Positions 5,428 through 9,336 of a stretch of DNA of 64,000 bases are shown here, one piece after another. The stretch is from Ministeria vibrans ATCC 50519 (lineage: Eukaryota; Protista; Filasterea), in the NCBI GenBank assembly GCA_943704425.1, contig CALSCP010001493.1:1-64000 (forward strand), given 5' to 3'. The position numbers and the translations under genes were made by a program. Positions within the stretch are counted from its first letter, which is position 1, and the number at the start of each line of letters is the position of its first letter. Under the pieces are notes generated by a model. It did no database searches. It was not told the DNA's origin and was given only the letters and a program-made list of their open reading frames with translations.

Positions 5428-8400
5428 CGTTGAGTGCCTCGTCGATGGACACTGCAAAATTCTCTCCTTCAACAATCTCCTCAATGATCTCCTGCTTGAC
5501 ATTCTGCTCGTGTGGCGACAGCTGCGTCTGCATCCACTCAATCTGCATCCCTCGCTCGTCAAAACACCGATAGAGTGCCTCCACTGAGTACTCCGACGCC
5601 TTCACATGTTTCGTAGATTCCTGCAATCCAATACAATAGACACTATCAGCACAGTCACACACATACACACACACACCAACACACACACACAAATGCACTA
5701 CTAAGAAACAGATTATCCTTACAGAAAAGTCAACCGAGACACGTCGCTTGGGCTTTCGCGGTGGATTGTCCACGCGGAACACAGCCGCATCCAAAGCCTA
5801 AACGAACAAACAGGAGCAGATACACACACACACAATGAGTACAGACACGGCAGAAAAAATGAGAAAAACGTACAATGACAATGTCAAGAATTTCCTGACG
5901 GGTAATCTTGGGGGAGACGGAGACACGCAGGGCATTGTAACCGAGTGTGTCATCAATGGCAAGGCCTGTGAAGGAGCGAGGCGGGGGAGGCGCACACACG
6001 TGCAGCTGCAGTCGCGGTGCATTGTCGACAATCGCGTCGGCGGTGTACTGGGCACCCTGGAAGGAGAAGCACGAGAAGCCGGAGACGCGACTGGCAAAGT
6101 CGATGTGGCCATGAAACACCACGTTGGGCACATCGTGCTTGAGCTTGCTCTCAAACAACTCCATGCGCTCCGCCAAAATCAGAGAAGTCTCCATCAAGTT
6201 CTCACGCATGTCCTCACACGCGCGCGCCGAGCCCACTAGAGCCGCGCCGTCGCGGCAGTGTGGGACATCACCGAGGCACGCCGGTCCATTGGGCGTCTGC
6301 GCCATGGTCACCTGGGGCGGGCCGTAGATGCGCCCCACCGAGAAGACAGAGACGTCGGCACCAAGGTCGCCGGGAGTCACACGCATGCGCCCAATGCCTG
6401 CATCCAGATTGCAAAAGACGCACGCGGCGGGTGCCTTGGTGCGCACAGCAGACGCCAGCTCATCCACACGCAATCGCAAACCCGTGTAGGCACAGGCAAA
6501 GGAAATACATGCCAGGACTGTGTCCTCAGTGCACGCCCGACCAAACGCCTCCGGCTCAACTGTACCGTTCTCCTGAAAGTCCACAATGGTCATGTCAATC
6601 TGTCCACCCACTTCACGCGCCTCCAATGCACTCAAAATCTGGTCACACTCGGCGCCTGTTGCCAGCACATGGGGAAGGGCGCCCGAACGACCACCGCCAC
6701 GTTTCTTCCACTGTGCGATTGCATGAACGAGGGCACCCTTGAGCACATCGCCAATCGACGTCGACACCGTTAAAGTGTCCGGCTCGCAACGAAGCAAGCG
6801 GGACGCCTCGTCAATCGCCTCCTCGAGCGCCGACTCTTCGGTACAGTCAAGGTCGCCCGACTTGTACGAATTGACTGCCTCCAGGGCAGAGGGCACCAAG
6901 TCGGGACGCTCCATGTAGTCGCAATTAATAACCTTGACACGCTGCTCGCTTGCCGGCACAGCCGAGGTGTCGGCCACGGGTGTGTACGCGGATTTGGTGG
7001 GTACCGGCATGACAAATGGCGATTTGGCAAAGGACAGCGCTGCAACGCTCTGGTCGCCGTCGGCCATCATCATCATGGCGGCCAGGTCGTCTTCTTCATC
7101 TTCAGCGGCGGCGGCGACTGGCTGCTCAAAGGAACGTGGTCGTCGCGACTGTGCTCGCCGACGCTCCTTTTCCTCCTCCTCCTCACGCTCCTTCTTTAGT
7201 CGTTCCATTTCGCGTGCACGCTCCTCTGCTTCGCGGTCAACACGTACAACCGGACGCAACAGACTCATCGACAGGCTCGGCTCGGAGCCAGCGCGAGCCA
7301 TCGGCGACGGTGGTCCCTTGCCATCATTATCCTTCTTCTGCTGTGTCTTTGCCTCGCGTTGCTTTTCCTCGCGTTCACGCTGCTCTTGTTGCTCACGTTC
7401 GCGTTCCTTCTCCTGCTCGCGCTGGCGTGTTTCACGCTCGCGAGAAGCGTTGCTATCACTAATGGTGTCGTTGTTAGATTGACTCTGAGATACGTTGGTG
7501 GGGTGAAGCGAATAGAGACTCGCGCCGGGCGCAGTCAAAATGCTAGCCATGCTTGTATCACAGCTGTCTGGCTCGGTCTGGAGCTGAGCGTCGCTACGCT
7601 TGCGTCGCCCAAACAGGTCAGGAATGGGTTCGACAATAGCGACATTGAGCTCGGAGTCGTCGACAAATGACGTGGAGCCGTAGAGCGAACCAGGACGACC
7701 CTGCGAAGTCTTGTTTGGAGACTTACTGTCCTTTTGCCACGGTTGCTTGGACAGACGCTGGGCATTGGCCAGCGATGTATCCTCAGCGGACGAGGTGCGA
7801 CGCGACTTGGGCTGCTCAACATAGTCCCACTCGCCCACGCGCCCAAAGCGCTCACGTTCTGACGAGGTGTCGTTGTCTTCCACCACGTTAGGAGAACGAC
7901 CCACCGTGCGCGTCGAGGGAGCAAGAGAAGTCCAGCTTGTCTCGACGGCCGGTGTGCCTGGCGTGACTTCGTCGGCGACAGAAGGGACACGGGGAATAGA
8001 TTCTTTTGAACTGGTGGCGCGGAAGGAAGGAGGACGAGTGCGACGGGCCGAGGTACTGCTCTCGGTTGACGGTGTTGTTTCGGTGGGAAGCCGTGCTTTT
8101 GGGTTGAAACCGGGTGGGCGCTGCTGGAGTGAAGAGCGACGACGTACAATCTTGCCAAAGGGTGTAGTGGCGCCTTCGACAAGAAATTCGGTGCGCAATG
8201 CCTCCTGATCGTCGACCACACCTCGAGGTGCGTTGTCAACAGCGGGAGAGGAAGGTGGAGGAGCAGACGACGTGAAGACGGCAGCGGGAAGGTCGGGTGT
8301 TTTTGGGACAGAGTCTTCGACAAGGGACGAGAGTCGCGACCCGGAAGGCTGTCTCTGTGGCTGGGGCGGAGGAGGCTGCTGTTGTTGTTGCTTTTGGTGT

Positions 8401-9336
8401 GGTTGTGATCGAGTGGATGGGGGCGAAGTGGGTTGTGGGTGGGGCGAGGGCAATGTGGCTGGAATGCCACGGAAGAGATTGCCACGGGCAACGGACGTGC
8501 CCATTTTGGCGGCAGCCGGAGCATCGGTAGGTAGCACGGCGCGACCGGTGTCGTCTGTCTCGACACCTTCTTGCTTGATCCAGGACGCTGCACCTCGCTT
8601 GGTCTTTTTCATGACGCCACCAAATGGATTGATTTTAACAGGCCCGACTGGGCGGTCGGCGCGTGCCTCGCTGCTTGAGGGCTCGGGGACAGCAGCAGTA
8701 GCAGTGGTGGGGGCGGCGGCGGAGGAGGAGGAAGAGGCGACAGCGGACGGGAGAGCCGAGGGAAGACCTGCAGGATGGGAAGGGATCGTGAAAGAGCCGG
8801 GCCGGGTTTGTTGTGGCTGGCGCAAAGGCACTTCTGAGCGATTTCTGTCGGACGTTGACGAGTTTGAGAGGGTACGTCGAGCGGGCTCGGGCGACGCCCC
8901 TGGCGCATGGGACGAACCAAAGGAGCGACGTGCGCCCAGGGGTTCGCGCTGAGCAGGTGTCGGTTCGGGAGGCGGAACATGACCGCTGACATCGCTAGGA
9001 GGCACTGTAATGCCTGATTTCCATCGCTTCTTGTGCTGTTCGTGACCAAAGCCCTCGCTACACACAGAGAGTATAAAGGTGAGAACTTGAGTTTGTATAC
9101 TGAACCAGTGTGCACACTTACGCGTAGTTGCCTTTGATCTACAGAGGCAAGAAGAGCAAAGAGCATGAGAGGGTGAGTATACAGGGGGGCTGTGTGGGGG
9201 GGAAGGGGGCGATTCGCACCTGGAAGAGTCGCTTGAAGTGCGGCTTGCAGAAGTACTCGCCATCGAGCGACGCGTACGTCCCCAGGTTGAGCAGCGAGTT
9301 GCATTCACGACAGCGGAAGCATGTCCGATGGAAGAG
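5428..9336 (-). CDS. LIM-domain (LIMD2/EPLIN-type) protein with long disordered linker and C-terminal degenerate NifS/selenocysteine-lyase-like domain; both ends incomplete
   Basis: Spliced N-terminal exons read [56 protein letters not shown]. Region ~6940-5873 aligns by eye to the IscS/SCLY fold (INCDY..., [59 protein letters not shown]). Confidence 0.8.

What the first reader, a model, noticed from the sequence alone, without database searches (positions are those of the whole stretch)
5873..9336. LIM-domain protein fused to a PLP-dead cysteine desulfurase/selenocysteine lyase domain
Seen: one long exon carries the end of a LIMD2/EPLIN-type LIM signature ([12 protein letters not shown]), roughly 700 aa of disordered/charged linker, and then an apparently full-length class-V PLP fold. 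Known: IscS/NFS1/SCLY need the Schiff-base Lys in S/G-H-K-x-Y-G-P, the His of E-H-x-A/S and the Asp/Gln of H-x-D-A-x-Q. Here these read SVGRIYGP (K to R, ~6318-6341), AECDQI (H to C) and FCNLDAG (D and Q lost). The GGGQE..RSGT loop is gone. A Cys remains near the catalytic-Cys position (LHVCAP). Inference: a pseudoenzyme reused as a dimerisation scaffold or redox/sulfur sensor on an actin-associated LIM protein. I do not know this architecture from the literature. The LIM tail and the NifS-like domain lie in one uninterrupted frame, so the fusion is not produced by the flanking mis-joins.
Basis: partly seen in the sequence, partly recalled or inferred. Interest (0 to 1): 0.78.

Follow-up and report, generated by a model that had tools for sequence, protein, structure and literature searches.

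The report
Actin LIM protein carrying dead desulfurase
A eukaryote, likely a marine protist, makes one spliced mRNA that joins an EPLIN-type LIM domain to a cysteine-desulfurase-like domain lacking its vitamin-B6-binding residues, likely a dead enzyme reused as a structural module on a predicted actin-binding protein; we found this pairing in no other organism.

Summary
Spliced RNA contigs from two studies run in one piece from the LIM exon through a 17-nt micro-exon, the 3,184-nt exon and two further exons. A DNA contig also spans 5417-9719. The domain at 6941-5874 is a full-length group I desulfurase/selenocysteine-lyase homolog (PDB E 1e-8; VIA Z 42). It has lost the Schiff-base Lys, the PLP His, Asp and Gln and the GGGQE/RSGT segment, keeping 15 of 50 family-conserved columns against a median of 46. 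It keeps a Cys at the catalytic position. Variants among isolates are mostly silent in the domain (6 of 8, p about 0.02), so it is probably maintained. The LIM carries the EPLIN motif. No orthologue or LIM fusion turned up in the protein searches. Lys-less desulfurases are already known (Archaeoglobus IscS; 5 of 146 hits here), and EPLIN proteins of unicellular holozoans often carry odd extra domains. Best reading: a pseudoenzyme used as a structural, probably dimerising, module (0.5). Rival: a Cys-based redox, metal or selenium sensor (0.25). The gene's first and last exons are missing from the window. Function is untested.

The parts
9220..9336 (-). Exon with the second part of the LIM domain (6 of 8 zinc ligands: H, C, C, C, C, H). 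The upstream exon with the first CxxC is not in the window.
   Evidence: Pfam LIM E 2.9e-8; 58-68% identity to EPLIN/LIMA1 and two unnamed LIM proteins in 38 of 39 hits; RNA joint and upstream loose end
9122..9138 (-). 17-nt micro-exon carrying the first half of the Eplin motif (KGNY)
   Evidence: The 17 letters between the joint sides in 3 of 4 RNA runs (table 5c); GT-AG ends
9021..9057 (-). Start of the long exon: second half of the Eplin motif ([12 protein letters not shown])
   Evidence: GNY-x-EGFG follows the LIM in 36 of 39 LIM hits
6942..9020 (-). Low-complexity, probably disordered linker of about 690 aa with Pro/Gln-rich and E/R/K/Q-rich (possibly coiled-coil) stretches
   Evidence: Composition; no Pfam match below E 6.5; variants 1 silent, 3 amino-acid-changing and one in-frame 3-nt insertion
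5874..6941 (-). Full-length group I cysteine desulfurase / selenocysteine lyase-like domain without PLP-binding residues: His>Cys (6647), Asn>Cys (6494), Asp>Asn (6410), Gln>Ala (6401), His>Gly (6335), Lys>Arg (6332), GGGQE/RSGT replaced (about 6281-6251, Thr>Cys 6257); Cys kept at the catalytic position (5996)
5723..5797 (-). Exon 4 in the window: end of the last helix and a basic linker
   Evidence: RNA joints in X12, X7, X17 and X13
5428..5620 (-). Exon 5 in the window: acidic 64-aa segment of no known family; the mRNA continues into an exon that is not in the window
   Evidence: Same loose end at 5428 in 4 of 4 RNA runs; not found in the window; no family hit
5154..5269 (.). GA/CT repeat at the probable downstream mis-join (the next exon of this gene and the 3' exons of the opposite-strand EF-hand gene are both missing)
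   Evidence: DNA contigs end on both sides
9720..9768 (.). Poly-A/T tract at the probable upstream mis-join (the first exons of this gene and of the divergent neighbour are both missing)
   Evidence: DNA contigs end at 9719 and restart at 9769; RNA loose ends at 9336 and 9842

Best explanation
One spliced gene encodes an EPLIN-class LIM domain, a long linker and a desulfurase-like domain that lacks the PLP-binding residues and is likely a pseudoenzyme kept as a folded structural module, probably a dimerisation unit, on a predicted actin-associated scaffold. Shown: a single transcript and reading frame, homology and a predicted intact fold, loss of the PLP and substrate residues, and the Eplin motif. 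Inferred: (1) without the Lys, His, Asp and Gln no PLP aldimine can form, so there is no desulfurase or lyase activity; (2) the domain arose from a spare copy of a group I desulfurase or SCLY gene that fused into an EPLIN gene and then lost catalysis while selection kept the fold; (3) because this fold is normally a homodimer, it would pair two LIM/linker arms and give a long, bivalent cross-linker or anchor for actin structures.
For: Single RNA contigs of 4,194 and 4,800 nt span the LIM exon to exon 5 in 2 of 4 RNA runs from different studies, and the LIM-to-long-exon joint is in 3 of 4. A DNA contig covers 5417-9719 in one piece. Homology: PDB cysteine desulfurase E 1.4e-8, Atlas score 0.96 to NifS clusters, model pLDDT 94, Foldseek E 8e-26 with TM 0.85, VIA Z 42 over 351 residues to human SCLY. 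Of 50 columns conserved in at least 80% of 85 homologs the domain keeps 15 (homolog median 46, minimum 18); most of those kept look structural (several Gly, Pro, Leu, Thr), while the PLP and substrate residues are gone. Variants pooled from other runs: 6 silent and 2 amino-acid-changing in the domain (p 0.004 on all sites, 0.023 on transitions only) against 1 and 3 in the linker. Eplin motif present; EPLIN-class proteins bundle actin and act as scaffolds (PMC3305314 passages). IscS and SCLY are homodimers (PMC7585200 passage; PMC6770646 abstract start). A natural Lys-less IscS has no desulfurase activity (PMC7585200 passage).
Against: No orthologue was found, so conservation across species cannot be shown. 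The variant counts are small, the domain-versus-linker contrast is not significant (Fisher p 0.22), and three of the eight domain variants, including both amino-acid changes, come from one contig of depth 4. The confident model was built from an alignment of active enzymes, so the fold match is partly circular; the single-sequence model failed (pLDDT 36). The GNPSS and GGGQE/RSGT segments are lost or replaced, and from recall these help form the two-subunit active site, so the dimer may not survive. In X7 (to 9719) and X17 (to 9394) the RNA contig runs unspliced into the intron upstream of 9336; the first Met of the visible frame is residue 194, so such a form would lack the LIM. Retained and new cysteines at former active-site positions favour the first rival.
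Confidence: 0.5

Rival explanations
1. The domain is PLP-free but chemically active through cysteines: the emptied pocket binds a metal or Fe-S cluster, or accepts persulfide or selenide on Cys322, and so tunes the LIM scaffold to redox, sulfur, selenium or iron state.
For: Cys replaces three conserved active-site residues: His (144 of 150 homologs), Asn of NNE (125 of 150) and Thr of RSGT (127 of 150); the catalytic-position Cys is kept. The domain is 3.9% Cys against a homolog median of 1.5%, and only 2 of 149 homologs reach that level. Asp106 sits at the position of SCLY Asp146, which contacts the catalytic Cys and sets selenium specificity (PMC3266270 passages). A. fulgidus IscS lacks the Lys and uses its Cys as a [2Fe-2S] ligand (PMC7585200 passage).
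Against: Other genes in this window reach 2.5-3.0% Cys. The SSGSA loop before the Cys is deleted, so its register is uncertain. Asp at position 106 also occurs in 14 of 150 homologs. No orthologues exist to show that these Cys are conserved.
Confidence: 0.25
2. The domain is a passenger: a recently captured enzyme copy drifting under weak constraint inside a tolerant, disordered EPLIN tail, with no function of its own.
For: Found in one species only; very long branch of 1.85-2.08 changes per site; EPLIN proteins of unicellular holozoans carry unrelated extra domains (PMC3305314).
Against: After about two substitutions per site the domain is still full length and in frame, and aligns over 351 of 362 residues. 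Losses fall selectively on PLP and substrate residues. Variants in the domain are mostly silent.
Confidence: 0.1
3. The protein is an Fe-S-related regulatory module: a dead IscS-like domain followed by an IscX-like domain in the missing C-terminus, tethered to actin by the LIM.
For: The last six residues of exon 5 and the first ten read from the RNA loose end match E. coli IscX residues 11-26 at 11 of 16 positions. The ungapped score of 51 is above all 105 control comparisons (maximum 47); E about 0.02 against seven isc proteins. IscX binds IscS (PMC5801593).
Against: The match was picked after the fact from recall. It is best against E. coli and falls to 5-41 against five other IscX proteins. 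The Trp and Asp conserved in all six IscX N-termini are absent. The IscS Arg220/223/225 patch needed for IscX binding lies in the segment that is replaced here. Eukaryotic IscX is reported only in Apicomplexa. None of 12 long IscX hits carried Aminotran_5 or LIM. Only 10 residues of the downstream exon were seen.
Confidence: 0.07
4. The domain still binds PLP or PMP non-covalently, or keeps a residual or new catalytic activity.
For: The fold is predicted intact; Arg345, at the column of the conserved C-terminal Arg, is kept; an Asp lies two residues from the canonical position and can be aligned to it with a gap.
Against: The stacking His, the phosphate-binding His and Thr, the Gln, the TSGGTE turn and NNE are all replaced as well as the Lys. 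This is more loss than in four of the five Lys-less homologs, and all five keep the Asp.
Confidence: 0.06
5. The fusion is an assembly or annotation artefact, or two separate genes.
For: The window appears mis-joined at both flanks.
Against: One frame without stops; single spliced RNA contigs in two studies; one continuous DNA contig.
Confidence: 0.02

Closest known systems
EPLIN class of LIM proteins (LIMA1/EPLIN, XIRP2, LIMD2 and unicellular holozoan members; PMC3305314)
   Same: Single LIM of the same type (58-68% identity over about 40 aa) followed by the Eplin motif, then a long low-complexity tail. Unicellular members also carry odd extra domains (SLyX; cyclic-nucleotide-binding plus EF-hand).
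   Different: None of 39 LIM hits has an Aminotran_5 domain, and the paper's main text does not contain 'aminotransferase' or 'desulfurase' (supplements not read).
Group I cysteine desulfurases and selenocysteine lyase (IscS, NFS1, NifS, SCLY)
   Same: Full-length fold (VIA Z 42 to SCLY, 39.9 to NFS1, 39.1 to IscS), 20-30% identity, Cys at the catalytic position.
   Different: PLP and substrate residues lost; 26-30 bits against NCBIfam cut-offs of 300-640 for the best six families; fused behind a LIM and a 690-aa linker; no signal of which subfamily it came from.
Archaeoglobus fulgidus IscS and Methanosarcina acetivorans IscS1 (Lys-less IscS; PMC7585200), and five stand-alone Lys-less homologs found here (P0018, P0042, P0074, P0091, P0123)
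   Same: Natural loss of the Schiff-base Lys with the catalytic Cys kept (4 of the 5 homologs here keep it); no desulfurase activity reported for the A. fulgidus protein.
   Different: The named ones are prokaryotic, all are stand-alone (351-401 aa here), and the archaeal ones work with IscU. All five homologs keep the PLP Asp. This domain is further eroded, eukaryotic and fused to a cytoskeletal protein. Its tree pairing with P0018 was flagged as a long-branch join.
MICAL (monooxygenase-CH-LIM)
   Same: A LIM domain and a cofactor-enzyme fold in one actin-related chain (search listing; the rest recalled).
   Different: MICAL's flavin enzyme is active and oxidises actin. Here the enzyme fold is unrelated, lies C-terminal, and has lost its cofactor site.
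SPTLC1/LCB1 (recalled, not tested)
   Same: A fold-type I PLP domain without the Schiff-base Lys that serves as a structural partner in a dimer.
   Different: It pairs with an active paralogue in a metabolic enzyme; there is no LIM or cytoskeletal link.

Membership tests
Group I cysteine desulfurase / SCLY (Aminotran_5) | Full-length fold-type I two-domain fold and family-level homology | tested here: met
   Pfam 24.8 bits over cut-off 21.5; PDB E 1.4e-8; Foldseek TM 0.85 and VIA Z 42 on an alignment-driven model
Group I cysteine desulfurase / SCLY (Aminotran_5) | Schiff-base Lys in S/G-H-K | tested here: not met
   Arg at 6332, Gly for the His; Lys in 141 of 150 homologs
Group I cysteine desulfurase / SCLY (Aminotran_5) | PLP-stacking His of E-H | tested here: not met
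   Cys at 6647; His in 144 of 150
Group I cysteine desulfurase / SCLY (Aminotran_5) | Asp and Gln of H-x-D-A-x-Q | tested here: not met
   Asn and Ala in the gapless register; an Asp two residues on can be aligned to the canonical Asp with a gap, but the Gln is absent either way
Group I cysteine desulfurase / SCLY (Aminotran_5) | NNE and GGGQE...RSGT segments | tested here: not met
   NNE reads CAY; GG deleted; R, G, T and N replaced
Group I cysteine desulfurase / SCLY (Aminotran_5) | Catalytic Cys in an SSGSAC-type loop | tested here: inconclusive
   Cys322 aligns to the column (119 of 150 homologs have Cys), but five residues before it are deleted
Group I cysteine desulfurase / SCLY (Aminotran_5) | Homodimer; PLP-dependent sulfur or selenium release | not testable with these tools
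   Needs purified protein
SCLY subfamily | Asp146, Val256 and His389 equivalents (PMC3266270) and placement in the SCLY clade | tested here: inconclusive
   1 of 3 residues match (Asp106; Ser and Ala at the other two). Best structural match is SCLY. The ichthyosporean SCLY P0002 ranks 2nd by phmmer and 3rd-5th by BLASTP. Trees do not join them; forced clade p-AU 0.076
EPLIN class LIM proteins | Single LIM domain of EPLIN type with 8 zinc ligands | tested here: inconclusive
   6 of 8 ligands in the window and closest named hits are LIMA1. The upstream exon was seen only as 30 of 85 letters in one RNA run and matches the expected stretch before the His; the first CxxC was not seen
EPLIN class LIM proteins | Eplin motif directly after the LIM | tested here: met
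   KGNY (micro-exon) and EGFGH..HK..W (long exon), as in 36 of 39 hits; motif described in PMC3305314. Its exact 22-aa definition is in a supplement that I did not read
EPLIN class LIM proteins | Actin binding or bundling | not testable with these tools
   Inferred from class membership only
IscX / YfhJ (PF04384) | A complete 64-66 aa helical domain with N-terminal W-x-D, FTD and LEAI motifs | tested here: inconclusive
   11 of 16 identities to E. coli residues 11-26, weaker to five other IscX, W-x-D absent; the rest of the exon was not available
MICAL | FAD monooxygenase and CH domains before the LIM | tested here: inconclusive
   None in the visible part; the X12 contig has only 85 nt upstream of 9336 and may be incomplete

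The most novel reading that the evidence does not exclude
The emptied PLP pocket of a desulfurase fold has been re-lined with cysteines (replacing the His, Asn and Thr, beside the old catalytic Cys and an SCLY-type Asp) to bind a metal or Fe-S cluster or to carry persulfide or selenide, perhaps with an IscX-like tail. An EPLIN-type actin cross-linker would then read iron, sulfur, selenium or redox state directly: a new kind of cytoskeletal sensor built from a dead metabolic enzyme.
Probability: 0.15. Interest if true: 0.85.

Novelty: new variant of a known kind. Interest (0 to 1): 0.52.

Why it matters
It is a transcript-supported case of a core sulfur/selenium enzyme fold, stripped of its cofactor site, built into a cytoskeletal LIM protein. 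My searches found no such architecture in protein collections or in papers. It would add a class V PLP pseudoenzyme from a eukaryote to the few prokaryotic Lys-less IscS proteins, and it is easy to test because the 360-aa domain can be expressed alone. If the cysteines prove functional it would link Fe/S/Se chemistry to actin. The limits are that it is known from one species, both parts have precedents on their own, and lineage-specific fusions are common in EPLIN proteins of unicellular eukaryotes.

Tried and rejected
No whole genome is held for this window, so paralogues (an intact NFS1 or SCLY) and the missing exons could not be sought. Homolog search with the long exon, scoring residues 690-1061 among proteins of 583-1857 aa: 0 hits in 7,996 candidates. 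HMMER search of 1.84 billion representatives: 200 hits, best 26% identity; I saw the top 150, the longest 824 aa; 13 were scanned with Pfam and none had a LIM. Metagenome scan: 1 weak locus at 31% identity, not followed up. The two RNA loose ends are not in the window. Single-sequence structure prediction failed (pLDDT 36) and was not searched. Complex prediction of two copies of the domain with zinc gave no verdict (score 0.00, alignment not used); it is not used for or against binding. Trees: the first timed out; FastTree on 132 rows joined the domain to P0018 in a flagged long-branch join; IQ-TREE on 30 hand-picked rows, with the five Lys-less homologs left out, placed it in no supported group. 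Exon 5 alone: no meaningful hit in Pfam, PDB or the Atlas, and no BLASTP alignment to IscX. The IscX scan of genomes returned only near-identical enterobacterial copies. The residue tally was mis-registered and was redone; only the IscX part is used. Three look-ups of earlier findings returned nothing. A recalled resemblance of exons 4-5 to PP1-binding (RVxF) tails was dropped untested; the RVxF pattern search covered only the long exon and found none. The host lineage was not determined.
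Full report
Observation. The window is eukaryotic DNA with short GT-AG introns and long simple repeats. Pfam finds Aminotran_5 (E 1.3e-5, above the curated cut-off) in this frame and a LIM half (E 2.9e-8) in the exon at 9336-9220.

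Gene model. Contigs of four RNA runs were laid on 4500-11000. Three of the four (X12, X7, X17; three studies) join 9220 to 9057 through a 17-nt micro-exon. Two (X12, 4,194 nt; X7, 4,800 nt) run as one contig from the LIM exon through the long exon and two more exons to 5428. X13, listed as DNA but spliced, confirms the two downstream introns. The five visible exons have GT-AG ends and give 1,195 codons without a stop. A DNA contig (X1) covers 5417-9719 in one piece, and X2 covers it in three overlapping contigs, so the fusion is not a mis-join. All four RNA runs continue past 5428 into sequence absent from the window, and X12 continues upstream of 9336 into sequence that reads like the middle of a LIM. 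DNA contigs break at the GA/CT repeat (5154-5269) and at the poly-A tract (9720-9768), and the neighbouring genes on the other side of each break also lack exons. I infer mis-joins at both places. Against a simple model: X7 and X17 run unspliced into the intron upstream of 9336. That may be intron retention or an alternative start; its first in-frame Met is residue 194, which would give a protein without the LIM. Contigs cannot tell which form dominates.

The LIM part. The 41-residue LIM piece found 39 relatives among 41 candidates, mostly vertebrate LIMA1/EPLIN, and none has an Aminotran_5 domain. In 36 of the 39 the LIM is followed by GNY-x-EGFG, which here is split between the micro-exon and the long exon. 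PMC3305314 (passages read) defines the EPLIN class by a LIM plus this adjacent motif, describes its members as actin bundlers and scaffolds, and notes unrelated extra domains in the sponge and choanoflagellate members. Six of eight zinc ligands are visible.

The enzyme-like part. Sequence alone links 6941-5874 to group I cysteine desulfurases and SCLY: 200 HMMER hits at 22-37% identity among those shown, apart from one spurious repeat protein, PDB E 1.4e-8, Atlas score 0.96. A model from an 86-row alignment (85 of the 150 hits shown) has pLDDT 94 and matches NFS1, IscS and SCLY by Foldseek (E about 1e-25, TM 0.85) and VIA (Z 42.0 over 351 residues for human SCLY, 39.9 for NFS1). This is partly circular, since the alignment holds active enzymes, and the single-sequence model failed. 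Of 50 columns conserved in at least 80% of the 85 homologs the domain keeps 15; the homologs keep a median of 46. Lost are the Schiff-base Lys and the His before it, the stacking His, the Asp and Gln, NNE, GNPSS, TSGGTE and GGGQE/RSGT. The Asp call depends on register. A Cys aligns with the catalytic Cys across a five-residue deletion. No laid run lists another letter at these codons. The subfamily of origin is unresolved: the best structural match and a local stretch favour SCLY, but only one of three SCLY-diagnostic residues of PMC3266270 (passages) is present, and trees do not place the domain (forced SCLY clade p-AU 0.076).

Is it maintained? Twelve single-base variants in the long exon were pooled from the eight runs. 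The domain has 6 silent and 2 amino-acid-changing variants; the linker has 1 and 3. The domain excess has p 0.004 on all sites and 0.023 on transitions only; without one contig of depth 4 it is 5 and 0 (p 0.005); the contrast with the linker is not significant (p 0.22). With a full-length, in-frame domain on a branch of about two changes per site, this points to selection on the fold, on thin data.

Mechanism. The most likely reading (0.5) is a pseudoenzyme kept as a folded module. Enzymes of this family are homodimers, so the domain would pair two chains and turn a single-LIM protein with a 690-residue flexible arm into a bivalent actin-associated cross-linker or anchor. Neither dimer nor actin binding is shown. 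The main rival (0.25) is cysteine chemistry: Cys replaces three conserved active-site residues and the domain is 3.9% Cys, a level reached by 2 of 149 homologs, although neighbouring genes reach 3%. PMC7585200 (passages) reports that A. fulgidus IscS lacks the Lys, has no desulfurase activity and lends its Cys as a [2Fe-2S] ligand. Five of 146 homologs that cover the site also lack the Lys; all are stand-alone proteins. A third lead came from the loose end at 5428: sixteen residues around that junction match E. coli IscX, an IscS partner, at 11 positions, above all 105 control comparisons. The match weakens on five other IscX proteins, lacks the conserved Trp and Asp, the IscS arginine patch that binds IscX is not kept, and no IscX-desulfurase fusion was among 12 long IscX hits. 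I give it 0.07.

Novelty. No orthologue or LIM-Aminotran_5 fusion was found in four sequence searches; these reach protist proteins unevenly, and this organism's own protein was not found in them either. Paper searches for the combination (listings and abstract starts only) showed no description of it; subscription journals are mostly outside that library, and I read no supplements, including the domain tables of PMC3305314. It is not a member of the active desulfurase family, since the defining PLP residues were tested and are absent. It is best filed as an EPLIN-class LIM protein with a new pseudoenzyme domain: a new variant of a known kind, real and testable, so far from one species. Interest 0.52.

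Noticed in passing
window 4760-5150 (+): Small spliced gene starting MGN.. with EF-hand-like motifs (calcineurin B/recoverin-like by recall); two introns confirmed by RNA; cut off at the GA repeat, supporting a mis-join there.
   Followed up: partly
window 9844-10414 (+): Highly covered transcript for a short Pro/Gly/Tyr/Gln-rich protein ending in a Cys-rich tail (CYSTM-like by recall; no Pfam hit); its first exon is missing from the window (loose end at 9842).
   Followed up: partly
window 9337-9719 (-): RNA contigs of X7 and X17 run unspliced through the acceptor at 9337, while X12 is spliced: intron retention or an alternative start that would give a LIM-less isoform.
   Followed up: partly
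window 4800-10400: Near-identical sequence is held by runs filed under five coded organism labels and by algal and marine metagenomes, so the owner may be a protist that travels with algal cultures rather than the labelled organism.
   Followed up: no
window 13263-16334 (+): PA14 domain followed by a galactosyltransferase/CHGN domain, the layout of animal-type B4GALNT3/4 (recalled); with the EPLIN gene it hints at a holozoan or related lineage.
   Followed up: no
window 47523-52579 (+): Long LRR ectodomain with a kinase domain downstream: a probable LRR receptor kinase.
   Followed up: no
window 22339-24986 (-): F-box ORF directly followed by a RhoGEF-like ORF, possibly one F-box-RhoGEF gene.
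   Followed up: no
proteins P0018, P0042, P0074, P0091, P0123: Stand-alone desulfurase homologs without the Schiff-base Lys (P0091 from a Verrucomicrobia-type bacterium named); four keep the catalytic Cys. Lys-less IscS may be more widespread than the archaeal cases.
   Followed up: partly
protein P0075; protein P0118: Active-looking desulfurase/SCLY domains fused to an AIRS (selenophosphate synthetase-like) domain and to a tRNA_SAD domain.
   Followed up: no
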